A stretch of DNA of 64,000 bases from Sphyrna mokarran (taxonomy: Eukaryota). The stretch's first letter is position 1. Every line of letters starts with the position of its first letter. The translations under genes were made by a program, and so were the position numbers. Location: positions 34,100,001 through 34,164,000 of the forward strand of contig JAGIQG010000019.1 in the NCBI GenBank assembly GCA_024679065.1, in the 5' to 3' direction. Below, piece by piece: positions 3,271 through 62,525 of the stretch. The notes under the pieces are model-generated. The model ran no database searches, had not been told where the DNA came from, and saw nothing but the letters and a program-made list of their open reading frames with translations.

Positions 3271-4452
3271 ACAGTACAATCCATGTTTGCAATTTTACTG
3301 TCTCTTTTAAGTGGCATGACCCTTCCAGAATGGGCAGGAGGCTTATTAACATGAGACTGACTGGTTTTCAATATCATTAGTGAGCTGGGCATGCAATCGT
3401 TTCCCCCCACTTTTGGAAGCTTCCCATCTCTCCAGCGTGACATCGCCCTCGCGCCAATAAGTACAAGTCTGTAAAAAATATGGCTTGGATTCAGCAGTAG
3501 CGAAGGAAGGCTAGAGAGTAAGTACTGCTGAGCACCAACCTCTAGGGTGCAGTTGTGGAGGTGGTCTCAGCCACCATGCCTGGATGCAGGGCTTGCATGG
3601 GTGTGGGAGATTGGAGTGGCTTAGACTTCTCTGGGGTCTGCAGGACAGTGGCTTGTGGCTCTTGTGGCACATATTACCCTTGGCTACTCATTGACCCATG
3701 AGGGGTTCCACATGAAGTTCAATTCTATCTCCACTAATGTCATGCTGGTTGCCCTGACATCCACCTGCTGGACAGGCTGTATGGTTTCTTGCGAATGTTC
3801 AATCCCAGGCCTCACTAACAGTAACAAGCAGCAGGTCTGGCAGCTGTTGCCCCAATCAAGGGAGCTTGGCAGGTGTTAGCATGGCTTCTCACACTACATG
3901 AACCCTGCAGTGATCCTTATAATGACCACCTATTGTATGGAAGTCATGAGGGTATTCTTCCACCCTCTGTCTGAACTGCAAGCTATTTCTGGAAACCAGT
4001 GCACCAGATGTCCAAGTGGGTGCACAAGGGTCTATGTTTAAAGGGTTCCCAATGCTTCCAACTGTCAGTCATTCTTATGCTCCATGCAAGTGCTAGAACA
4101 TGGAGCCCAGTCTGCCACATGTTGCTGCAAAGGGCCTGTAGTAGCAGGATTCTGTACCTGGTAGAATGGCCATCTGGAGGAGCATCTACGCACTGCACAC
4201 CAACGACCATGCAACTGCACTGCGGATGCAGAAGGCATCATGCTGTACCATGTATAGGAAAGGTACAGCCAAATGGGAGGCCTTTGGTGACCATGAGGAG
4301 GCACAGCAATGTCTGTGGCAATAATGCAACAGTGGCCAGCAGTTCCTTGATGTGGAGAATGACACCGGGGATGGTATACAGTTGGCGTAGCTCAGTCTCA
4401 TGGGGACACAGGTTGCTGGAATGGATTAGGGGTCGGAATGGATAACCCTCAA

Positions 4453-7215
4453 GTCTCTGTCTCTCTCTCTCTCTGTCTGTCTCTGTCTCTGTCTCTCTCT
4501 TTCTCTCTCTCTGTGTCTCTAACTCTCTCTCCCTCTGACTCTATCTGTCTCTCGCTCTGTGTCTCTCGCTCCCTCTCTTGCTCCCTCATGCTCTCGCTCT
4601 CTCACGCTCACTTGCACTCTCTTGCTCGCGCTCTCTCTCTTGCTGTCTGTCTCCCTTGCTCTCACTCTATCTCTCTCGCTCTCTCTTTCTCGCACCCTCT
4701 CGCCTTCTCTCTGTTTCTCTCTGGCTCTGCATCTCTCCCTCTGTCTCTCTCTCTCTCCCTCTGTCTCTCTCTCTCTGTTTCTCCCTCTCTCACCTTCTCG
4801 CCTTATTCTCTCGAGATCTCACCCTCTCACAGACTTGCTGCCTCTCGCGCACTGCCTCTCGCGNNNNNNNNNNNNNNNNNNNNNNNNNNNNNNNNNNNNN
4901 NNNNNNNNNNNNNNNNNNNNNNNNNNNNNNNNNNNNNNNNNNNNNNNNNNNNNNNNNNNNNNNNNNNNNNNNNNNNNNNNNNNNNNNNNNNNNNNNNNNN
5001 NNNNNNNNNNNNNNNNNNNNNNNNNNNNNNNNNNNNNNNNNNNNNNNNNNNNNNNNNNNNNNNNNNNNNCTGTCTATCGCCTTCTCGCCTTATGGCCTTC
5101 TTACTCTCTCGAGTTCTCATAGGCTTGCTTGTCCTGTCATGCTCTGTCTCTCGTGCTCTGTCTCTCACCTTCTCGCCTTCTTGCTCTCTTGAGCTCTTGC
5201 AGGCTTGCTCATCTTCATGCACTCTCTCTTGTGCTCTTTCTCTCTCGTGCTCTTTCTCTCTCATGCTTTCTTTCTCCCACGCGCTGCCTCCCTCTCGCGC
5301 TGCCTCCCTCTCGCGCTGCCTCCCTCTCGCGCTGCCTCCCTCTCGCGCTGCCTCCCTCTCGCGCTGCCTCCCTCTGTAGCTCTCTCTCTCTTGTGCTCTC
5401 TCTCTCTTGTGCTCTCTCTCTCTTGTGCTCTCTCTCTCTTGTGCTCTCTCTCTGTGGCCCTCCCTGTCCCGCTGGCCCTCCCTGTCCCGCTGGCCCTCCC
5501 TGTCCCGCTGGCCCTCCCTGTCCCGCTGGCCCTCCCTCTCCCGCTGGCCCTCCCTCTCCCGCTGGCCCTCCCTCTCCCGCTGGCCCTCCCTCTCCCGCTG
5601 GCCCTCCCTCTCCCGCTGGCCCTCCCTCTCCCGCTGGCCCTCCCTGTCCCGCTGGCCCTCCCTCTCCCGCTGGCCCTCCCTCTCCCGCTCGCCCTCCCTC
5701 TCCCGCTCGCCCTCCCTCTCCCGCTCGCCCTCCCTCTCCCGCTCGCCCTCCCTCTCCCGCTCGCCCTCCCTCGCTCTCTTGTGCTCTCGGAGGCTTGCTC
5801 TCTTGCCCTCTCGCGCTCGCTCTCTCTCGCGCTCGCTCTCTCTCGCGCTCGCTCTCTCTCGCGCTCGCTCTCTCTCGCGCTCGCTCTCTCTCGCGCTCGC
5901 TCTCTCTCGCGCTCGCTCTCTCTCGCGCTCGCTCTCTCTCGCGCTCGCTCTCTCTCGCGCTCGCTCTCTCTCGCTTGCACGCTCCCTCGTGCTCGCCCGG
6001 TCCCTCGTGCTCGCCCTGTTGATCTCGCGCTCAGTCTATCGCTTGCTCTCTCTCTCTCTCGCACACGCTCTCGGTCTCACACACGCACCCTCTCACTCTC
6101 TTCGCGGGCGCTCTCTCGCGCGTGCGCTCTCGCTCTTTCTCGCACACGCTCTCGCTATCTCTCACTCGTGCTCCCTCTCGCTCTCTCGCCCTCCCTCGCC
6201 CGCGCTCTCTCGCCCTCCCTCGCCCGCGCTCTCTCGCCCTCCCTCGCCCGCGCTCTCTCGCCCTCCCTCGCCCGCGCTCTCTCGCCCTCCCTCGCCCGCG
6301 CTCTCTCGCCCTCCCTCGCCCGCGCGCTCTCGCCCTCCCTCGCCCGCGCGCTCTCGCCCTCCCTCGCCCGCGCTCTCGAGCTCACTTTTTCAGTCTTGTG
6401 CTCGTTCTCGGTCTCGCGCGCCCTCTCTCGCCCGCGCCCTCTCTCGCCCGCGCCCTCGAGCTCACTGTTTCAGTCTCGCCCCCGCTCTCTCTCGGTCTCG
6501 CCCTCGCCCCCGCTCTCTCTCGGTCTCGCCCTCGCCCCCGCTCTCTCTCGGTCTCGCCCTCGCCCCCGCTCTCTCTCGGTCTCGCCCTCGCCCCCGCTCT
6601 CTCTCGGTCTCGCCCCCGCTCTCTCTCGGTCTCGCCTCGCCCCCCGCTCTCTCTCGGTCTCGCCCTCGCCCCCGCTCTCTCTCGGTCTCGCCCCCGCTCT
6701 CTCTCTCGGTGTCTCTCTCTTCGCCCCCGCCCCCGCTCTCTCTCGGTCTCGCCCCCGCCCCCGCTCTCTCTCTCGTCGCGCCGCCCCCGCTCTCTCTCGG
6801 TCTCGCCCTCGCCCCGCTCTCTCTCGGTCTCGCCCTCCCGCCCCCGCTCTCTCTCGGTCTCGCCCTCCCGCCCCGCTCGCTCGCGCTCCCTCCCCCGCTC
6901 TCTCTCGGTCCGCGCTCCCTCCCCCGCTCGCTCGCGCTCCCTCCCCCGCTCGCTCGCGCTCCCTCCCCCGCTCGCTCGCGCTCCCTCCCCCGCTCGCTCG
7001 CGCTCCCTCTGTCTCTCTCTCTCTTTTTCTTGCGCTCTCTCTCGTGCTCGCTCTCTCTCGTGCTCGCTCTCTCTTCCACTCACTGTCTCTCACTCTCTCT
7101 CACACTCGCTGTCGCTCTCTCTGTCTCTCTCTCGCGCTCGCTCTCTCTCTCTCTCTCGCGCTCGCTCTCTCTTGCGCTCACTGTCTCTCACTCTCTCTCT
7201 CTTGCACTCGCGCTG
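4453..7215. repeat. Compound pyrimidine-rich micro/minisatellite
   Basis: (CT)n background with perfect sub-arrays: 18-mer cctccct(g/c)tcccgct(g/c)gc ~5459-5770, 16-mer ctctctctcgcgctcg ~5810-5975, 24-mer cgccctccctcgcccgcgctctct ~6185-6375, and ctctctctcggtctcgccctcgcccccg units ~6480-6860. Confidence 0.95.
4864..5069. other. Assembly gap (N run)
   Basis: Run of N inside the CT array. Confidence 0.99.
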
Positions 7216-8699
7216 TCATGTGAGTCCTCAGTGATGGCCTGAGAGTCTGAACTAAGCTCTGGAGCTCCTCAGCAATTGCCTGCTGTGGCTGGATCAAGCT
7301 CCAGATCCCCTCCACATCTGTCCTTTGAGATTGGGCCATGCTGTCAAAGCAGGAAGCGATGGCTTGGTGAAATCGGGCCAGGCTCTCAAAGCCTCAGAAA
7401 TATCCCTCTGAAACTCCAGCAAGCTCCTGAGGTCCTCAGCCATCAACGTCTAAACTCAGCCATATCTTGGACCCTTTCATAGATGGCTACCATTTCTTTC
7501 CCTAGGCTTTCCACGGCAGTCGCCACCCAAGCAGTATTGGTCTGGGTGCCACACAATGCTGGTACCAGTGACACCCCCTCCTGCAATTACCAGCTCTGCT
7601 TCTAGAGAACTGTTCCCAGCTGCTTGTCATCTGGCTCGGGGCCAGCTGTCTCTTTGGCTCCGGCAAATCTCTGCATTTCCACACCCACTCAGCATTAATG
7701 GCTGAGTGGTGCTCACCAGAAAATAACCCAGAAGCGTCACCACTAATGTGTCTCACTGAGATGACTCTGTTGACTGGTCAGTGCTTTTGTCGAAGTTGTC
7801 CTCCAAGGTGTCAATGGGGTTCGCAGCAAGGGTGCCATCTCCTGTGGGCCAGACCTCATTGGGTTTCGCTCCTGCAAAAGGAGACACACAGTTCAGTGCG
7901 AAAGCACATCTGGGCGGTTTGCAGCTGATTTGGAAATGGTTATATTAATGAAGGTTTTGTGGCTCCTCACTTCTTTGCTGTATGCCAACCTATCAATTAT
8001 GGCTCTTTCTGTTGCTTTCCCTGAGAGTTCCATGGCTCGCTCCACAAACAGATCAGAAGATGCAGCTTGGGGACTCGCACCAATTAAGAGGCTGCTTAGT
8101 CAGGGAAGTTAGGGGCCTGCCTTTGGAGCCACTTTATTACAGAAACAACATGACCAGGAAGAAGGTGACTCAGTAGTGTCTTTTAAGTCAATGGTTATTG
8201 AAAGCCTGATGGCTACATGCCCACAGGGTGTTCGAGGTTGGGGGCAGGATGAGATGGATACTAACCCTTGCTACCCACTGTCTGAACAAAGTCGTTAATT
8301 TTCTTGCAGCACTAATCACAGGTCTTCCATGTCGGTGCATGGGCACTGTCTGCTGCAGCCACTGCATCCAGGCCACGTTGCTGTTTCGGTTCCAGGGTCA
8401 TCTGACCTCTTTGAGAACAACATGGAACAACTTTCCTCTATGGCACCTAGCAGCCATCCTTACCTTCCCTCCATAAAACATAGGGCTGCTCTGCAAGGTG
8501 CCATTTTCCTTGCATGGCTGGCTGTCAGTGCTTTGTTAGTGTTTAAATTAAACTCCTCCTGCTTAACCGCGCACAGCTGTGGCTACGTGAGGTGAATCTT
8601 GTGCCTGGAGCCTCCATGATGGCATGTTTCATGTGACTGCTTTTTCAATTCACTAAATGTCAAAAGATTGTGACGCCAAGCACACCTGAGAGACTGATA

Positions 8700-9210: not shown

Positions 9211-9485
9211 AGAAATCTACCTTTGGCATGGGGTAAGGGATAAATTAGCTCAGACAATGGGAACGTGCAAAACATTCTTCAAAAGTGCCAGTGAATCTTT
9301 TAGGTCAGCTTGAGAAGACAAGGGCCTCACCTAAGTGTCTCATTTGTTAGGAGGCACTTCCAACACTGCAGCACTCCTTTAGTGCTGCATTTGAATTTTA
9401 ACCTCTATTATGATCTCAAGTTTCTAGACTGGGATTTGAAGCAATAATTTCCTGAGAGTGCTGTCAACAGAAACATGGTTGACAA
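9210..9485 (-). mobile_element. Deu-domain SINE (SacSINE1/AmnSINE-like)
   Basis: Revcomp matches the Deu core of 23475-23930 (tgcagcactaaaggagtgctgcagtgttggaagtgcc...tgagacactt). Confidence 0.7.
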
Positions 9486-9916
9486 TTGTTCATAATTGTT
9501 AAGATAAAACAAATGCTCAAGTGGCAATTACATGCTATTCAATAATTCATCAGCAATCAGTGAAGTATTTTTTATCTGTCACATTCTTGTTTGTGAAGTA
9601 AGCAAAAAAAATTAATTGATCATGTTACTGACAGTATCTTTGATGAATAACATTGACAGGGTCAGCTGCTTCCTTATTTGTATATTTATCTGTTTGAAAT
9701 GCACAATTGATTTATTTTGTTTTTTTGCCTCTCTTCTGAACCACCAATTACTGGGCCACAATGGTTTATGAAGTAAATCATAGTGGGCTGGCTTATGGGT
9801 AGATTGTGTTTGTGATGTCTTTCGGATATTTTTCAGCTGGCTTGTTAATTGTTCACACTCGCTCTAGTGCTTGCCGCAGACAAAAACCAGCTTCTTTTTT
9901 CCCTTCTCTCTAACAG

Positions 9917-9925
9917 CGTATGGAT
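9917..9925 (+). CDS. Candidate 9-nt microexon (CGTATGGAT) of the SHANK3-like gene
   Basis: Long pyrimidine tract ending ...cccttctctctaacAG, then 9 nt, then consensus donor GTGAGT (9926-9931). TGCATG lies at 9960-9965. Frame-preserving. No transcript evidence. Confidence 0.55.
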
Positions 9926-10185
9926 GTGAGTGACTCCTGGAGCCTGTAGGAAGTTCCTTTGCATGTAATTAACACCCAGTAGCTGCCTTGTGTGAGGGAT
10001 GTCAGACGAGAATGCTAGATCGACATTTGTTTGATTTCTCCTACCCCCCCCCCCGCCTCCATCCTCTCCCCCTCCCCCTCCGTGCATTATGCAACAGGCT
10101 ATGTGCGGGGGGGGAGGAAAGAGGCATGTGGGGTGGGGTTTGAATGGAGTGGGGGGATGAGAAATGCATGCTGCTCGAGTGACTG

Positions 10186-10372
10186 AGGTGTGTGTGCGTA
10201 TGTATATGTGTGTGTGTGTGTGTGTGTGTATGTATTTGTGTATCTATGTCAGTGTCTTAGACAGCAAGCATTCCAGCTTTATTTTGTTAACTCCAACCTC
10301 TGTGCAGAAGAGAAAAACACACACGCACACATATACACACACACATACATACGCACACATACACATACATAC
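10186..10372. repeat. Facing (TG)n and (CA)n microsatellites
   Basis: TG-rich 10186-10250 and CA-rich 10316-10372. Confidence 0.9.
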
Positions 10373-10468
10373 AATCAAGACTTTGCTGCTGCTGCTGAAT
10401 GCTGGTGATCACCTTTTGAAGATGGTTGTGAAAAGTAACCCAGCTCCCCTCTTCTCTTTCTCTCACAG

Positions 10469-10551
10469 TGATTATGTCATCGAGGAAAAGACAGCAGTGC
10501 TTCAGAAGAAGGAGAACGAGGGATATGGCTTTGTCCTCCGAGGAGCTAAAG
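10469..10551 (+). CDS. SHANK3: SHANK-family (SHANK3-like) coding exon, start of PDZ domain
   Basis: Polypyrimidine tract and tctcacAG acceptor (10467-10468), donor G|GTGGGA at 10552. Translates (S)DYVIEEKTAVLQKKENEGYGFVLRGAK, matching the SHANK PDZ N-terminus. 83 nt; the phase-1 end joins the 49360 exon to form GCG (Ala). Confidence 0.93.
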
Positions 10552-11524
10552 GTGGGATTTGCTGCATTCCTGATTCCCTTATTTTTCCTTTGTGAAACAT
10601 CCAGCTATATACTGAGCTGGGGTTATAATGCTGCACAGATGATCGGGAATTTGTATTTTGCCTTGAGAACCTTTCACACTGCTTCTGCCGTCCCCTATGA
10701 ATCTGTCCAGTTTAACAGCTTGTTTCAGTGTTGCTAGCTTAGCCTCAGCACCTTCAATCTTTGTCATACTTGCAACATGATGAGGAACCATTGTTATATC
10801 TGTGTTGTACAGATGGACAGGGTGAATTTATGCTTCACCACAGACAACGTTCTATTCATCATGCTTCTCATTATTGCAGGCAGCAGGACTGCAGCTAGGA
10901 AGAGACAACAGAATGGCCAATTGCATTTTTCTTGAAAACTGACTGTTATGCCAAACACTGGTGTAAAAATATGGTTGACACATTTCCCTGTTTTTGCAAA
11001 TATTTCAGGGCGAAATATGCAACTGCTCTGGAAAGCGAGGTTTATTAGATAGGGACAGAATTCTTGTTAAAAGCAGTTACATGCCGAAAGCATCGGAGCC
11101 TTTCTCTCCAGTGCAATTTTTCCAACAGACTGGAAAGGTAATGTTTTAAAAAATGTAGTCAGAATGTGCCCATGTCAATACTTGGCAGAAAATACCATTT
11201 CAATTTGCGTGTGAGCACTTGTATCTCTGTCAGCGCCTGCGAAACACGTGTTTGCACACGTGTGCGTATGTGTAAATGTGCACGTGTGCACGCAAATGAA
11301 TGACCACAGACCTCGTTACGTGTGAGTTGATCTGCCTACACAAATTCACATGTCCAGCTATTGATGCAAAAGAAAACTATTCCTGTCACGGTATGTACAA
11401 TACTGATATTCTCAGATACAGGAACAATGTGAATGCCATGCTAAGTAATGGCATCAACATTCATAATGGCAATACATACAACAAAACTGTTTGTCCTTTT
11501 CAGGACCCTGTGTGTTCATCTCTC

Positions 11525-17159: not shown

Positions 17160-17815
17160 GAACATAGAACATTACAGTGCAAAACAGGCCCTTCGGCCTT
17201 CGATGTTATGCCGACCAATTAAGAAAAAGCAATGACCCTCTAACCTAAACCATTCCCTTTTCATCCATAAACTTATCTACTAACCTCTTAAACGCCACTA
17301 AACTTGGTGCATCTACAACTGCAGCAGGCAGGGCATTCCATACCCTTACCACCCTCTGGGTAAAGAACCTACCTCTGGCATCCGTCCTATAACTACCACC
17401 CCTTAATTTAAAGCTATGTCCCCTCGTGCTAGCTTTCTCCATCCTAGGAAAAAGGCTATCACTGTCCACCCTATCTAAACCTCTAATCATCTTATATGTT
17501 TCAATAAGGTCTCCTCTTAGCCGCCTTCTTTCTAACGAAAACAACCTCAAATCCCTCAGCCTCTCTTCATAAGACCTGCCCTCCATACCAGGCAACATCC
17601 TGGTAAACCTCCTCTGTACCCTCTCCAATGCCTCCACATCTTTCTTATAATGCGGGGACCAGAACTGTACACAATACTCCAAGTGCGGCCGCACTAGAGT
17701 TTTGTACAGTTGCAACATGACGTTGCGGCTCCGAAATTCAATCCCCCTACCAATAAAAGCTAAGACTCCGTATGCCTTCTTAACAACCTTATCGACTTGA
17801 TTGCCAACTTTCAGG
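17160..17815 (-). mobile_element. Young 5'-truncated CR1 LINE
   Basis: Uninterrupted ORF2 C-terminus (ORF 17245-17718), near-identical to 36030-36695, (atgttct)n tail, and gataatt duplicated at both ends. Confidence 0.95.
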
Positions 17816-18023
17816 GATAATTGATGAGGGAAGGGCTGTGAATGTAATTTATATGGACTTTAGTAAGATGTTGACAAGGTCCTACATGGCAGACTGTTGT
17901 AAAATCTAAAAGCACATAGGATTTGAGTTGCTGGCTAGATGAATACAGAACTTGCTTGGTCATAGAAAGCAGAGAGTAGGGTTGGAAGGTTGTTTTTCAG
18001 AATGGAGATCTGTAGCCAGTGTT

Positions 18024-20665: not shown

Positions 20666-21282
20666 TGGGAAAATGCTAGAATCAATTATTAAGGAAGCAG
20701 TAGCAGAAATTGAGAAAATCACAAAAGAATCAAGCAGAATCAACATGGTTCTATGAAAGAGAAATTGTGTTTCACAATTTATTTCATAAATTTATTAGAA
20801 TTCTTTGAGAATGTAATAAGCAGAGTGGAAAAAGGGAAACCAGTAGGTGTAAAGTAGTAGAATTTCCAGAAGACACTTCATAGGTGTCATAAATAAGGTT
20901 ACTATACAAGTTAAGAATTGATGATATTTAGATTAATATGTTAGCATGAAGAGGGTTGGCTCACTAACCAAAGCAGAAAATCAGAATAAATGGACCAATT
21001 TCAGATCGCCAAAGGGTAACTAGTGCAATGTGACAGGGATCAGTGCTGTGTCTCCAATGATTTACAGTCCATATTAACGACTTGGATGGAGGGACAGATT
21101 GCATTGGAGCAGATTTGCTCACTTTTTCCTACCTACCTATAAATTAAGCTGTGAAGAGGGCACAGTCTGCAAAGGGATTTACATATGTTAAGTGAACGGA
21201 CAAAAATTTGAGAGATGTGAAGAACAGGAGGCAGAATCTTATTTAAATGGAGAGAGACTGCAGGATATTTTAGTACAAATAT

Positions 21283-22338
21283 ATCATGGAGTACAAGAGC
21301 TGGCCTTTAATGTTGCAGTTGTATAAAATGTTGGTTAGACCTCATTTGGAATACTGCATCCAGTTCTGGTCGACCTACTACTGGAAGGACGTGGAGACTC
21401 TGGAGAGAGTGCAGAGGAGGTTTACCAGGCTGCTGCCTGGTATGGAAGGTCTGAGTTACGAGGAGAGCTTAGGCAAAATGGGACTGTTTTCCTTAGAAAG
21501 ACGTAGACTTAGAGGAGATCTAATAGAGGTGTACAAGATTATGAGGGGTATAGATAGAGTAAACAGGGTTAAGCTTTTCCCTAGGATGGACTCAAATAGC
21601 ACGAGGGGTCACGGGCTTAGGGTGAGGGGGGTAAGGTATAATTTGGATGCTACAGGGAGTTTTTTCACACAGAGGGTGGTGGGGTATGGAATGCACTGCC
21701 AAGTAAAGTGGTGGAGGCAGGCACTCTGGAGTTATTTAAGAAATACTTAGATGGGCACATGAACAGAATGAGAATGGAGGGGTATAGGAAACTGATTTAA
21801 AATAGGGATCATGAGCCTTGGGAATCCCTGGGAGTGTGTAAATAGATAATGATATTGATGTACTTGTTTTTTATCCTACAGGTGCTTTGGTCCACCTTGT
21901 TGTCTAACAAGGGGCATATACGCGATGGGTCGTGAGAGGGCTGCTCTTGGATTTTTTTTTCGAGAGTATCCTAGTGCTTCATGTCGTTAGTGTACGCTTG
22001 ACTTGGACCATTTGATGGGCAACACGATAGCTCAGTGACTATCACTGTGCTGTGCAGATACATGGATTTGGGCCTGTGTCTGTGTGGGTTTGCGCATTCT
22101 CCCTGTGCTTGCATGGGTTTTCTCTAGGTGCTCTGGTTTCCTCCCACATCCCAAAGATGTGCTCTTAGGCTAATTGGTAAAACAAATTCTCCCTAAATTG
22201 TCTCAAATTTGGTTTTTAATCCATAGATCTATAAACATGGACAGGCATCGTGGGTAGAGGTGGGAACTTTGGGGTGGCGGCACGGGCTCGTTGGGCCGAA
22301 GGGCCTGTTTCCCATGCTGTTTTGTTCTTTGTTCTTTG
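21283..22338 (+). mobile_element. CR1 LINE 3' part with long 3' UTR containing a V-SINE-like core
   Basis: ORF 21286-21750 is the CR1 ORF2 C-terminus. The 3' UTR includes a V core at ~22016-22185. Tail gggccgaagggcctgtttccc...(ttgttct)n. Confidence 0.88.
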
Positions 22339-30690: not shown

Positions 30691-33600
30691 TTCATTGTTC
30701 CAGTGAGAACAAACCAACTTTCTCCAATCTCTCTTCATAGCTATTGCCATCCATACCATGCAACATCCTGGTAAATCTTTTCTGTACCCTCGCCAGTCTC
30801 CTCAACTTTACAGTAATGTGGCAACCAGAATTGAACACTATATTCTAAGTGTGGCCTAACTAAGGTTCTATAAAGCTGCAACATGACTTGCCAACTTTTA
30901 AATTCAGTGCCCAGGCTGATAAAAGTAAGCATGCCATGTGCCTTCTTGACTACCTTCTCCATCTGCGTTGCCACTTTCAGTGACCTATGTACCTGTACAC
31001 CCAGATCCTTCTGTCTATCAATACTCCTAATGGTTCTGCCATTTACTGTATATTGCCTATCTTTATGAGATCATCCAAAATGCATTACCTCACATCTGTC
31101 AGGATTAAACTTCATCTGCCATCTTTGCGCAAGCCTCCAACCTGTCTATCCTCTGTATTCTCTGATGGTCCTCATCACTATCAGCAAATCCACCAACCTT
31201 TGTGTTGTCCGCAAACTTACTAATCAAAAGTTATATTTTTCTCCAAATCATTTATATATTATGAACAGCAAAGATCCCAGCACTGATCACTGAGGAATAT
31301 CACTTGTCACAGCCTTCCATTCAGAAACACATCCTTCCTCTGTCTTCTATGACCAAGCCAGTTCTGTATCTACCTTGCCAGCTCACCTCTGATCCCATGC
31401 AACTTCACCTTTTGCATCAGTCTGCCATTAGGGATCTTGTCAAAGATCTTACTGAAATCCATGTAGATAACATCCACTGCTATATCCTCATCAATCATCA
31501 CTGTCACTTCCTCGAAAAACTCCAAGTTAGTGAGAAGTGACCCCCCCAATCACAAAACTATGTTGCCTCTTGCTAATACGTCCACTTATTTCCAAGTGGG
31601 AATAAATCCCCTCCTATAATTTCCCTATTACTGATGTAAGGCTCATTGGCCTATAATTATCTAGATTATTCTTGCTACCCTCCTTAAACGAAGGAACAAT
31701 ATTGGCAATCCCCTGGGACCTCCCCTGTAGTCAATGATGACACAAAGATTTCTCTCAAGATCGTAGCAATTACCTCCATTGCCTCTCTCAGTATTTTGGG
31801 GTATATCCCATCAGGCCCTGGGGACATATCCATCTTAATGTTTTTGAAGAATCCCAATATCTTCTCCTTTTTGATCTCAACATGACTCAGACTATCTACA
31901 CACCCTTTCCCAGATTCATCATCCAGCGAACCCTTTTCTTTGGTGAATATGACTCATTCAATACTTCTCCCATTTCCCCTGGCTCCATGCACAGATTCCC
32001 TCCCCTATCTTAAGTGGGCCAACCCTCTCCGTAGCTACCCTCTTGCTCTTTATATATGTATAGAAAGCCTTGGATTTTCCTTAATCCAGCTGGCCAGTGA
32101 TTTTTTTGTGACCCCTTTTAGTCCTCCTTACTCCTTGCTTAAGTTTCTTTCTACTTTCCTTGTATTCCACACTTGCTTCCCATGTTCCCAGCCTCCTAGC
32201 TTGAGAAATGCTTTCTTTTTCTCTTTGACTAGTCTCACAATACCTCTCGTTATCCAAGGTTTCCAAAACTTGCCATACTTATCCCTCATCCTTACAAAAA
32301 TGTGTCGGTCCTGAATCCCTATTAATCTACACTTGAAAGCCTCCCACACGCTAGAGGTTGATTTGCCCTTGAACATCTGCCCCAATCTACATTCTTCAGT
32401 TCCTGCCTAATATTGTTGTAATTAGCCTTCCCCAATTTAGCATTTTAATTTGAAGACTACACTTTTCTTCATCCATCGTTTCTTAAAGCTTACTGAACTA
32501 TGGTCACTGTTCCTGAACTGTTCCCCTATTGAAACATCAATCACCTGGCTGGGCTCATTCCCCAATACCAGATCCAGTTTGGACTATCTACTCACTGTTT
32601 CAAGAAGCCTTCCTGGAAGCTTCTTACAAATTCTGCCTTATCCATGCCCTAGAACTAAGTGAGTCTCAGTCAGTGTAGGGGAAGTCAAAATCTCCAACCA
32701 CAACAGTACTGTTACTTTTATACCTTGCCAAAATCTGCCTATATATCTGTTCCTCTATCTCTTGCTGGCTGTTGGGTGACTTATAGTAAAACATTGTGAC
32801 TGTACCCTTCCTATTCCTGAGCTGTACCCGTATTGCTTCGCTGTATGAGCCCTCCAAGGTATCCTCCTGCGGTACAGCTGTGATATTCTCCTTAACCAGT
32901 ATTGCAACTCCCCCACCTCTTTACATCCCCCTCTATCCCTCCTTAAACATCTGTATTCTAGAATGTTAAGCTGCTGATCCTGTTCTTCCCTAACCAAGTC
33001 TCTGTAATGACAACAACATCATATTTCCAAATACTAATTCAAGCTCTAATTTCATCTGCCTTACCTGTTATACCTTTCGCATTGCAACAACCGCGCTTCA
33101 ATCCACCAAATCCTCTTTGATTATCAACTACACCCTGTCTACTCTTTCTCTGAGTCTTATTGTCTCTACTCTCTGATTCCCCTTCAGTTAATTCACCTTT
33201 GCTTTTGTTCCCATACCCCTGCCAAACTATTTTAAATCCTCCCGTTTGACACTCGCAAACTTCCCAACAGAATATTTATGCCTTTCCAGTTTAAAAACAA
33301 CTCATCCTTCTTGTACAAGTCCCACCTGCCCTGAAGAGACCCCAACAGTCCAGAGATCTGAAACTCTCTCTTCTACTCTATCTGTTTACCCATGTGTTGA
33401 GCTGCACTATCTTCCTATTTCTAGCCTCACTGGCACATGGCACAGGGAGTAATCCTGAGATTATAACCCTAGAGGTCCTGCTTTTTAATTTCCTATCTAA
33501 CTCTCTAAACTGCTGCTGCAAGATCTCATTACTCTTCCTGCCTATGTCATTAGTACCAAGATGTACCACGACCTCTGGCTGTTCCCTTCAGAATGCTTTC

Positions 33601-35400: not shown

Positions 35401-36695
35401 GTGAACGGTAGATCGTGCCTTACTAACCTTATGGTTTTGTGAAGGGTAGGTCGTGCCTTACTAACCTTATTGAGTGTTTTGAAAAAGTGACCAAAGAGGT
35501 GGATGGGGGTAAGGCAGTTGATGTGGTATATATGGACTTTAGTAAGGCATTTGATAAGGTGCCCCATGGAAGACTTCTGCAGAAAATGCAGATGTATGGA
35601 ATTGAGGGTGATTTAGCTAATTGGATTAGGAATTGGCTAGCTGATAGAAGACAGAGGGTGGTGGTTGAGGGAAATTATTCATCATGGAGTTCGGTTACAA
35701 GTGGTGTACCTCAGGGATCTGTTTTGGGGCCCCTGCTGTTTGTAATTTTTATAAATGATCTGGATGAGGGTATTGAAGGATGGATTAGTAAATTTGCAGA
35801 TGACACCAAAGTCGGAGGAGTGGTAGATAGTGAAGAGGGGTGTTATAGTTTGCAGAGAGACTTGGACAAGTTGCAGAGCTGGGCCGAGAGGTGGCAAATG
35901 GAGTTTAATGCGGAAAAGTGTGAGGTAATTCACTTTGGCAGGAATAACAAATGTGTAGAGTATAGGGCTAATGGTAGGATTCTTAATAGTGTTGGAGAAC
36001 AGAGGGATCTTGGTGTATATGTGCATAGATCCCTGAAAGTTGGCAATCAAGTCGATAAGGTTGTTAAGAAGGCATACGGAGTCTTAGCTTTTATTGGTAG
36101 GGGGATTGAATTTCGGAGCCGCAACGTCATGTTGCAACTGTACAAAACTCTAGTGCGGCCGCACTTGGAGTATTGTGTACAGTTCTGGTCCCCGCATTAT
36201 AAGAAAGATGTGGAGGCATTGGAGAGGGTACAGAGGAGGTTTACCAGGATGTTGCCTGGTATGGAGGGCAGGTCTTATGAAGAGAGGCTGAGGGATTTGA
36301 GGTTGTTTTCGTTAGAAAGGAGGCGGCTAAGAGGGGACCTTATTGAAACATATAAGATGATTAGAGGTTTAGATAGGGTGGACAGTGATAGCCTTTTTCC
36401 TAGGATGGAGAAAGCTAGCACGAGGGGACATAGCTTTAAATTAAGGGGTGGTAGTTATAGGACGGATGTCAGAGGTAGGTTCTTTACCCAGAGGGTGGTA
36501 AGGGTATGGAATGCCCTGCCTGCTGCAGTTGTAGATGCGCCAAGTTTGGTGGCGTTTAAGAGGTTAGTAGATAAGTTTATGGATGAAAAGGGAATGGTTT
36601 ATGTTAGAGGGTCATTGCTTTTTCTTAATTGGTCGGCGCAACATCGAAGGCCGAAGGGCCTGTTCTGCGCTGTAATGTTCTATGTTCTATGTTCT
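35401..36695 (+). mobile_element. Young 5'-truncated CR1 LINE with open RT frame
   Basis: ORF 35439 onward has intact RT motifs (YMDFSKAFDKVPH, SGVPQGSVLGP, FADD), a (atgttct)n tail and ttctttt on both flanks. Inserted in an old CR1 (35125-36980). Confidence 0.96.
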
Positions 36696-36989
36696 TTTGA
36701 GATGGTTAAGAGGAGATTAGATAGATGTTTAAAATTATGAAGGCCTATATAGGAAAGTGTTCCCATTGGCAGGTTATCAACAATGAGATGATTGGCAAAA
36801 GAATCAGAGACAAATGAAGAAAGCCCATTTTATGCAGTGAGTAGTTAGGATCTGGAATGCATTGCCTGACAGTGTAGTGGAGGTAGATTTAGTCATGGCT
36901 TTCAAGAGAAAATTGGATAATTATGTGAAGAAAAATAATTACAGGGCGAAATGGGGAAGTGAGATCAAATGAGTAGCTCTTTTATGACA

Positions 36990-49359: not shown

Positions 49360-49484
49360 CGGAGACTCCAATTGAAGAGTTCACCCCCACACCAGCATTC
49401 CCAGCTCTGCAATACCTGGAATCAGTGGATGTGGAAGGAGTGGCATGGAAGGCTGGGCTCAGGACGGGAGATTTCCTGATTGAG
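49360..49484 (+). CDS. SHANK3: SHANK3-like coding exon, PDZ domain core
   Basis: Acceptor ctttcttttttttcatAG, donor GAG|GTAAAC. Translates (A)ETPIEEFTPTPAFPALQYLESVDVEGVAWKAGLRTGDFLIE. AETP and SVDVEG are SHANK3-type residues (SHANK1/2 have SVDEGG). 125 nt. Confidence 0.95.
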
Positions 49485-49954
49485 GTAAACATCAACTCCT
49501 CTAATTAAAAGTTAATGGTCACTGAAAACAAACTTTATTTTTGCCTCGGGAGAAAGTGTAGTTGGTGAGCTGTGGTTTTAAAGTATTTTGATGATTCCCA
49601 GGGAATTGGCAAAATCGACCCTGGCAATTCGTCATCGTCAATTCTGGCTGACAGTATTGTCTTTTAACCTGGGATTTTGCTGAGAGTCATTGTTGGGCTC
49701 GTATCTTTATAGCCTGGGAGCATTGGCTGGTGGTCTGTTGGCACGGAGTGTTGAATTTTGCTTTGCTAGTCTGGAGTGTTGTGTGGTATCTTTATACCTT
49801 GGAGTGTTTTTTGATGTTTTTTCTGCCCTGAGTATTGCCCAGTGTTTTTCTGAAATGTCAATAAAAATCATAAAATATTGCAGCAAGAAGAGAGATCGGT
49901 ACCAGTGAAGTGCTATTCAAGGTGATAGTAAGGGCTCAGAACAAGTCTACTCTA

Positions 49955-60857: not shown

Positions 60858-62525
60858 CATAAGAACATAAGAATATAAAAGTAAGAGTAACAAGTAAGAA
60901 TAATATGTGTGCAGAATATAGGGCTAATGGTAGGACTCAGTAGTGTAGATGAGCAGAGAGATCTCGGTGTACAGGTGCATAGATCTCTGAAAGTTGGTAC
61001 TCAAGTTGATAAGGTAGTTAAGAAGGTGTATAGTGTGTTAGCATTTATTGGTAGAGGGATTGAATTTTGGAGCCGAGATGTCATGTTGCAACTGTACAAA
61101 ACTCTGGTGCGGCCGCATTTGGAGTATTGTGTACAGTTTTGGTCGCCACATTATAAGAAAGATGTAGAGGCATTGGAAAGGGTGCAGAGGAGGTTTACTA
61201 GGATGTTGCCTGGTATGATGGGTAGGTCTTATGAGGAAAAGCTAAGGGACTTGAAGTTATTTTCATTAGAGAGAAGAAGGCTAAGAGGTGACTTAATTGA
61301 GACATATAAGATGATCAGAGGGTTAGATAGGGTGGATAGTGAAAGCCTTTTTCCTCGGATGGAGATGAATAACATGAGGGGACATAGCTTTAAATTAAGG
61401 GGTGGTAGTTATAGGACAGATGCTAGAGATGGGTTCTTTACTCAGAGGGTAGTAAGGGCGTGAAATGCCTTGCCTGCAGCAGTTGTGGACTCGTCAAGTT
61501 TAAGGGCGTTCAAATGGTCTGTGGATAGGCATATGGATAGCATTGGAATAGTTTAGGATAGAGGGTCATAAAATTGGTTCCATTGGTTGGCGCAACATCG
61601 AGAGCCGAAGGACCTGTACTGCGCTATAATGTTCTATGTTCTATAAGAAATAGGAGCAGGAGTAGACCATACAGCCCCTCGAGCCTGCCCCGCCATTCAA
61701 TAAGATCATGGCTGATCTGTAGTGGTTCAGTACCACTTTCCTGCTTTCTCCCCGTAACCCTTAGTTCCCTTGTGAATTAAAAACCTATCCACTCTTGACT
61801 TGAACGTATTCAGTGAGGAAGCCTCCACCACCTCATCAGGCAGACAATTCCAAAGATTCACCACCCTTTGCATGAAGAAACCCCTCCGTAACTCCAATCT
61901 GAACCACTCCCCCTAACCTTGAGGCTGTGCCCTCTAGTCCTGCTGTCTTTGCTAAGCGGGAAGAGTCTCTCAACTTCTACCCTATTCATCCCCTTCATTA
62001 TCTTATACGTCTCTATAAGATCCCTCTCAGCCTTCTAAACTCCAAAGAGTACAAACCTAGCCTATTCAGTCTCTCCTTATAATCCAACGCCCTCATCTCC
62101 AGTATCAGCCTAGTAAACCTTCTCTGCATCCCCTCCAAGACCAATATATCCTTCCTCGAATGTGGCAACTAAAACTGCACACAGTACTCCAGCTGCAGCC
62201 TCACCAGCACCCTATACAGCTGCAACAGAACCTCCCTACTTTTATATTCTATCCCTCTAGCTATAAGGGCCAACATTGCATTCACCTTCTTAATCATCTG
62301 CTGCACCTGCATACTGTGTTTTTGCGATTCGTGCACAAGGACCCCCAGGTCCCTCTGCACTGTCGCATGCTGCAGCTTTTCTCCATTAAATAGTAATCCT
62401 TCTTACCATTATTCTTAACAAAGTGGATAACTTCACACTTGCTAACATTATACTCCATCTGCCAGGTCCTCGCCCACTCACTCAACCTATCCAGATCCCT
62501 CTGCAGGCTTTTCACACCTTCCATG
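60858..62525 (-). mobile_element. CR1 3' portion (minus)
   Basis: SLQRDLDRLSEWARTWQMEYNVSKCEVIHF; tail (ataagaa)n split by the 60897-61643 insertion. Confidence 0.85.
60897..61643 (+). mobile_element. Young 5'-truncated CR1 LINE
   Basis: ORF 60909-61463 is closely similar to 35439-36740; (atgttct)n tail. Confidence 0.93.

What the first reader, a model, noticed from the sequence alone, without database searches (positions are those of the whole stretch)
9885..9970. Candidate 9-nt neural-type microexon just before the SHANK3 PDZ domain
Seen: in TE-free sequence, a strong pyrimidine tract and AG (9915-9916) are followed only 9 nt later by a perfect GTGAGT donor, with TGCATG 35 nt downstream (9960-9965) and again at 10165-10170. 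Known: neuronal microexons are 3n in length and promoted by downstream RBFOX (UGCAUG) sites, and SHANK1 has a short insert at the equivalent SH3-PDZ linker position. Inference: if the upstream exon ends in phase 2 with AG, as in SHANK3, inclusion would change S-DYVI to S-V-W-I-DYVI directly ahead of the PDZ fold. Such exons are routinely missed by annotation.
Basis: partly seen in the sequence, partly recalled or inferred. Interest (0 to 1): 0.8.

Follow-up and report, generated by a model that had tools for sequence, protein, structure and literature searches.

The report
Unsupported 9-base SHANK3 microexon look-alike
A nine-base stretch in an intron of a shark's synapse-scaffold gene SHANK3 has the textbook look of a tiny exon, but every transcript and protein record checked leaves it out, so it is likely a silent look-alike or at most a minor variant.

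Summary
The DNA observation is exact, and the upstream exon does end in phase 2, so inclusion would give S-V-W-I-DYVI. The gene is SHANK3 of a carcharhiniform-like shark. The motif is unusually strong: 2 such on the sense strand against 0 antisense, 1.06 Mb each. Nothing shows it is used. In 7 of 7 RNA-type runs laid (6 organisms, tissue unknown, contigs only) the PDZ-exon contig lacks it; 4 show the direct skip junction. None of 54 cartilaginous-fish SHANK3 records has an insert, while 23 of 52 carry the known 24-nt neural microexon and 5 of 53 SHANK2 records carry a real 9-nt one. Its upstream flank is no better conserved than plain intron in one close relative. Verdict: probably a silent pseudo-microexon (0.57); a minor or lineage-restricted exon stays open (0.3); a conserved, highly included neural exon is unlikely (0.05). 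Better supported nearby: a conserved in-frame internal start (ATG 10422) for a PDZ-first isoform.

The parts
9894..9916 (+). Pyrimidine tract and AG: 3' splice-site-like element of the candidate
   Evidence: Sequence; 18 of 20 pyrimidines; nearest UGC at -45 and -49
9917..9925 (+). Candidate 9-nt cassette; would add V-W-I in frame; no inclusion seen
   Evidence: frame; not in RNA contigs or protein records
9926..9931 (+). GTGAGT 5' splice-site-like element (exon side GAT)
9960..9965 (+). TGCATG (RBFOX-type motif), 34 nt downstream; function untested
10165..10170 (+). Second TGCATG; function untested
10422..10468 (+). In-frame ATG and 16-codon extension of the PDZ exon: likely start of a short PDZ-first SHANK3 isoform
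   Evidence: Frame; similar N-termini in 25 database records of bony fish, turtles, tuatara and birds; RNA contig of run X5 over 10397-10490
10469..10551 (+). First PDZ exon of SHANK3 (83 nt), joined directly to the upstream exon
   Evidence: PDB matches to Shank PDZ; loose ends in runs X14, X2, X12, X17
49360..49485 (+). Second PDZ exon of SHANK3
   Evidence: spliced to 10551 in 6 runs by listed loose ends

Best explanation
The nine bases sit between an acceptor-like and a donor-like signal in the intron before the first PDZ exon of shark SHANK3, all transcripts seen skip them, and they are likely a silent pseudo-microexon that arose by chance. An exon of 9 nt is too short for ordinary exon definition (established knowledge), so without a helper such as SRRM3/4 the spliceosome would join the upstream exon straight to the strong acceptor at 10468; that skip junction is shown, while the lack of helper activity and of selection on the motif is inferred.
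For: Skip form: in 7 of 7 runs laid the PDZ-exon contig reaches back to 10461 and carries no 9-nt insert; loose ends spell the upstream exon in X14, X2, X12, X17. 0 of 54 cartilaginous-fish SHANK3 records (16 named species) have an insert, although 23 of 52 carry the neural 24-nt microexon; Scyliorhinus canicula and Amblyraja radiata have the real 9-nt SHANK2 microexon annotated yet no SHANK3 insert. 232 of 232 SHANK3-type linkers have the same length. Against organism K the 57 nt upstream of the cassette carry 5 differences versus a background of 4.4 per 100, one of them removing the UGC at -49. The two genuine 24-nt microexons of SHANK3 and SHANK2 in this genome have UGC at -24 and -23; the candidate has none closer than -45. 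Weaker versions of the pattern are common on the antisense strand (11 in 1.06 Mb).
Against: At this strength the pattern had 0 antisense hits, and the only other sense hit is an apparently real SHANK1 microexon. It is 3n long, the only open-frame choice of 10 donors, and has TGCATG at +34. No difference is listed in 9905-9965 against organism K (P = 0.065; a plain 91-nt intron stretch is also difference-free). Logan contigs drop rare variants, tissues are unknown, and only 7 of 18 RNA-type runs were laid. Annotation catches a real 9-nt exon in only 5 of 53 records, and 39 members of three SHANK3 clusters were not listed. The real 9-nt SHANK2 microexon also lacks a UGC, and UGC is not strictly required (10.1101/2024.09.17.613571, section 10 read).
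Confidence: 0.57

Rival explanations
1. A real but minor, cell-type-restricted or lineage-restricted microexon, likely promoted by RBFOX at the downstream UGCAUG, that would add V-W-I at the hinge between the N-terminal beta-hairpin extension and the PDZ core and so could tune SAPAP binding or dimer swapping.
For: Strong, frame-keeping signals rare on the antisense strand; cassette, donor and first TGCATG unchanged in organism K. The junction falls at the boundary between extension (542-563) and canonical PDZ (564-665) as numbered in PMC6337207 (passages; my mapping via 5IZU). Only 3 carcharhiniform species are among the annotated records.
Against: No inclusion in 7 runs, including two organisms with an identical PDZ exon (X1, X2); upstream flank not conserved.
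Confidence: 0.3
2. One reading: a conserved, highly included neural microexon that annotation missed across sharks.
For: Motif quality; low annotation sensitivity for 9-nt exons (5 of 53).
Against: 0 of 54 records in 16 species, including species whose annotation caught the SHANK2 9-nt exon; long unbroken contigs at depth 15-19 skip it (X12, X17); the shank3 microexons listed for zebrafish are the 24- and 21-nt ones elsewhere in the gene (PMC12626424, supplement rows seen).
Confidence: 0.05
3. The signals belong to the leader of the short PDZ-first isoform: the donor at 9926 would end an untranslated first exon of an internal promoter, and the AG is incidental.
For: A conserved in-frame ATG at 10422 and an X5 contig over 10397-10490 point to an internal start nearby; G+C and CpG rise at 10001-10200; mouse Shank3 has several intragenic promoters (PMC4113141, PMC6175061, passages).
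Against: No joint from 9925 to any downstream place was listed in either lay; splicing 9925 to 10469 would remove the ATG at 10422 and put ATG 9920 out of frame (read from the sequence).
Confidence: 0.08

Closest known systems
SHANK2 9-nt microexon (VDK/VDR) after the PDZ domain
   Same: Same family, same length, frame-keeping; found in this genome at C1437:108667468
   Different: Different position in the protein; it is in protein records of 3 cartilaginous-fish species and 26 of 110 other SHANK2-like records, and has a stronger exon-side donor (GAG versus GAT)
SHANK3 exon 18 (24-nt neural microexon; zebrafish DreEX0066086 and DreEX0066093)
   Same: Same gene; present in this genome at C760:34239900
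   Different: Neuron-specific inclusion is published (PMC4113141, PMC12626424; passages and supplement rows), it has UGC at -24 and is annotated in 23 of 52 shark, ray and chimaera records; the candidate has none of this
Short alternative exon in the SH3-PDZ linker of mammalian SHANK1 (recalled, from no call)
   Same: Same intron and phase by recall
   Different: Longer by recall; not present in 9 of 9 SHANK1-type records held here and no counterpart identified in this shark's SHANK1 intron, so homology is untested
PDZ-first short isoforms (mouse Shank3d; SHANK2 ProSAP1-type start)
   Same: The ATG at 10422 extends the PDZ exon in frame, as the matching place does in this genome's SHANK2 (read from L023) and in SHANK2 records such as P0407 and P0469
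   Different: Concerns the stretch 500 nt downstream of the candidate; the position of the mouse Shank3d promoter in this intron is recalled, not read

Membership tests
Neural (SRRM3/4-type) microexon | 3-27 nt, frame-keeping, no stop | tested here: met
   9 nt, open frame S-V-W-I-D
Neural (SRRM3/4-type) microexon | Strong 5' splice site and pyrimidine tract | tested here: met
   GTGAGT; 18 of 20 pyrimidines; no MaxEnt score available
Neural (SRRM3/4-type) microexon | UGC enhancer close to the 3' splice site (in 74-79% of members) | tested here: not met
   Nearest UGC at -45 and -49, against -24 and -23 in two genuine exons; a third genuine exon has none
Neural (SRRM3/4-type) microexon | Inclusion in mRNA | tested here: not met
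   0 of 7 runs, 0 of 54 records; contigs cannot show rare forms
Neural (SRRM3/4-type) microexon | Neural-specific switch in inclusion | not testable with these tools
   Tissues of the runs are not given; no raw reads offered
Neural (SRRM3/4-type) microexon | Conserved exon and flanking intron | tested here: inconclusive
   One relative at about 96% identity: 0 listed differences in 9905-9965 (P 0.065), 5 in 9860-9916; no distant shark genome reachable
RBFOX-activated cassette exon | UGCAUG in the downstream intron | tested here: met
   +34 and +239; chance 5-7% per 150 nt
RBFOX-activated cassette exon | Inclusion depends on RBFOX | not testable with these tools
   Needs a minigene or knock-down
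SHANK3 (host gene) | Closest to SHANK3 among three paralogues | tested here: met
   Three paralogues in the genome; large exon 95% identical to catshark SHANK3; upstream exon matches only Shank3 5IZU

The most novel reading that the evidence does not exclude
A shark-lineage 9-nt microexon, switched on by RBFOX in a subset of neurons or muscle, inserts V-W-I at the hinge of SHANK3's domain-swapped PDZ extension and retunes SAPAP binding: an independent gain at the intron where mammalian SHANK1 has its own short exon (recalled).
Probability: 0.3. Interest if true: 0.5.

Novelty: not a real feature. Interest (0 to 1): 0.2.

Why it matters
If silent, it is an ordinary intronic look-alike and a reminder that strong splice motifs need read support. 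If used, it would be an unrecorded splice switch at a functionally important hinge of an autism-linked scaffold: the extension before the PDZ forms a second SAPAP-binding site in a swapped dimer (PMC6337207, PMC11371640; passages). That would be a new member of a well-known class in a non-model animal, not a new mechanism. No such SHANK3 exon turned up in the paper searches made (listings and selected passages only).

Tried and rejected
Run search: no holder on record as RNA; the 7 guessed-RNA runs laid did show spliced junctions. No RNA contig covered 9800-10000: no evidence by itself. AlphaFold model of the SH3-PDZ piece: mean pLDDT 38, unusable. Metagenome pattern scan: one hit (L108) with a 24-nt match and unrelated flanks, taken as chance. 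Local alignment of the candidate region to SHANK1 and SHANK2 introns: no better than their reverse strands; the 700 nt before the PDZ exon share only simple repeats with the paralogues. A recalled resemblance of 9917-9942, read in another frame, to the mammalian SHANK1 insert could not be tested: no record or paper held gave that insert. Longer exons from the same AG: 9 of 9 other donors give a stop. Recursive splicing: considered unlikely in a 14.3-kb intron (inference). Bacterial promoter scan does not apply. The primary Shank3-SAPAP structure paper is not held. bioRxiv 10.64898/2026.09.05.749416 has no mention of SHANK in its text; its supplements, which may list elephant-shark exons, were not seen.

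Full report
Observation. The window shows exactly what was described: a pyrimidine tract, AG at 9915-9916, nine bases, GTGAGT at 9926-9931, and TGCATG at 9960 and 10165. The stretch 9760-10020 has a single match in the genome.

Gene. The exon at 10469-10551 matches Shank PDZ structures. The genome holds three paralogues. This one is SHANK3: its large exon is 95% identical to catshark SHANK3 and its upstream exon matches only the Shank3 structure 5IZU. The SHANK2 paralogue is 97% identical to that of Mustelus asterias, which points to a carcharhiniform shark. The upstream exon lies outside the window (C760:34096096-34096171) and ends in phase 2, giving a 14.3-kb intron. In-silico inclusion reads S-H-S-V-W-I-D-Y-V-I; of 10 GT sites within 130 nt of the AG only this one keeps the frame open. 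The next exon is at 49360-49485.

Chance. In 1.06 Mb per strand of the three SHANK loci, a filter fitted to the candidate found 17 sense and 11 antisense hits. At 18 or more pyrimidines of 20 there were 2 sense hits and none antisense; the other sense hit is a 24-nt SHANK1 exon whose translation resembles the insert in catfish SHANK1 records. TGCATG falls within 150 nt by chance 5-7% of the time. The motif therefore stands out. The filter was set after seeing the candidate, and three other genuine microexons in these genes do not pass it.

RNA. The run search listed 18 guessed-RNA and 6 other runs, all contigs, none with a tissue. I laid 7 of the 18 (6 organisms, 7 studies) and 1 of the 6. In all 7 the contig over the PDZ exon reaches back to 10461, through eight letters shared by the intron end and the upstream exon end, which an inclusion form would not have. 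Loose ends spell the upstream exon in X14, X2, X12 and X17; X1's preceding letters were not listed; the contigs of X3 and X5 end at 10461. No joints were listed. This shows the skip form is present and is the main form in these runs. It cannot exclude a rare form, and I could not show that any run is brain.

Protein records. None of 54 cartilaginous-fish SHANK3 records that span the linker (of 58 held; 16 named species; 39 members of three clusters not listed) has an insert, and all 232 SHANK3-type linkers held have one length. Controls: the neural 24-nt microexon is in 23 of 52 of these records, so neural RNA fed the annotation. The genuine 9-nt SHANK2 microexon is in only 5 of 53 records (3 species), so sensitivity for 9 nt is low but not zero; two of those species have SHANK3 records here, without insert. 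This weighs against an exon shared by all sharks and rays, and less against one confined to close relatives. One SHANK2 record has a 32-residue insert at the linker (P0424), unrelated in sequence.

Conservation. One related organism (K) was laid as DNA: 21 other letters and 1 gap over 9479-9995, of which 19 and the gap are listed. None is listed in 9905-9965 (P 0.065 at the background rate), but a plain 91-nt stretch is also free of differences, and the 57 nt up to the AG carry 5. By contrast 10423-10898 differs at 3 of 476 places (Fisher P 0.0002). The result is inconclusive for the cassette and shows no conserved upstream flank.

Regulatory features. The genuine 24-nt exons of SHANK3 and SHANK2 in this genome have UGC at -24 and -23 and GTAAGT donors. 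The candidate's nearest UGC is at -45. The genuine 9-nt SHANK2 exon has no UGC, and a preprint reports UGC in 74-79% of SRRM3/4 targets and not strictly required (10.1101/2024.09.17.613571, passages and section 10), so this is weak evidence.

How it most likely works. Shown: the upstream exon is spliced directly to the acceptor at 10468. Inferred: the 9-nt stretch is too short to be defined without helpers, lacks the usual enhancer position and conserved flank, and is ignored (0.57). Rival: a minor or lineage-restricted, RBFOX-promoted exon (0.3). It would lengthen the hinge between the N-terminal hairpin extension and the PDZ core, which together bind SAPAP in a swapped dimer (PMC6337207, PMC11371640, PMC9740047; passages; primary paper not held). 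The conserved high-inclusion form (0.05) and a leader-exon role (0.08) are less likely.

What is better supported nearby. An ATG at 10422 extends the PDZ exon by 16 codons in frame. Similar starts occur in 25 records from bony fish, turtles, tuatara and birds (largely gene predictions), this genome's SHANK2 has a start at the same place (read from L023), and run X5 has a contig over 10397-10490 at depth 2.8, which could also be unspliced RNA. This fits a short PDZ-first isoform like mouse Shank3d. The papers read confirm several intragenic promoters and Shank3d's loss in exon 13-16 deletions (PMC4113141, PMC6175061, passages); the promoter's place in this intron is recalled.

Literature. Searches for SHANK3 with microexon, SHANK1 linker splicing, internal promoters and elephant-shark microexons gave no report of this exon. 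Zebrafish work lists the 24- and 21-nt shank3 exons (PMC12626424, passages and supplement rows). A long-read study of mouse and human SHANK transcripts does not use the word microexon (PMC11328446, passages). PMC5099374 (passages) added nothing on this site. Earlier notes of this scan cover other genes, where such candidates proved real in some cases and unsupported in others; none concerns this stretch.

Verdict. Observation confirmed; interpretation only partly supported; interest 0.2.

Noticed in passing
window 10422-10468: In-frame ATG and 16-codon extension conserved from shark to birds in database records; likely start of a PDZ-first SHANK3 isoform; one RNA contig covers it.
   Followed up: partly
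window 10553-10898: Intron just after the PDZ exon differs at 3 of 346 places from organism K, against 22 of 516 upstream (P 0.003); RNA-type contigs of two other organisms cover parts of 10700-10898 at about 94% identity. Possible conserved non-coding element or extended exon.
   Followed up: no
window 10552-49359: The intron between the two PDZ exons is 38.8 kb here but under 300 nt in this genome's SHANK2 (L023).
   Followed up: no
window 4450-7220: About 2.7 kb of CT/CG-rich simple and tandem repeats within the same intron.
   Followed up: no
window 17245-17859, 21274-21750, 35427-36740, 60891-61463: Reading frames that look like fragments of one LINE-type retrotransposon family (family judged by eye).
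   Followed up: no
window 32653-32658: A weaker AG-6 nt-GTGAGT motif (15 of 20 pyrimidines) deep in the next intron; probably chance.
   Followed up: no
G000:C760:34239900, G000:C1437:108667468 and 108686099, G000:C927:18979316: The 24-nt SHANK3, 9-nt and 24-nt SHANK2 and 24-nt SHANK1 microexons are present in this genome; no SHANK1 counterpart of the 9-nt one was found.
   Followed up: partly
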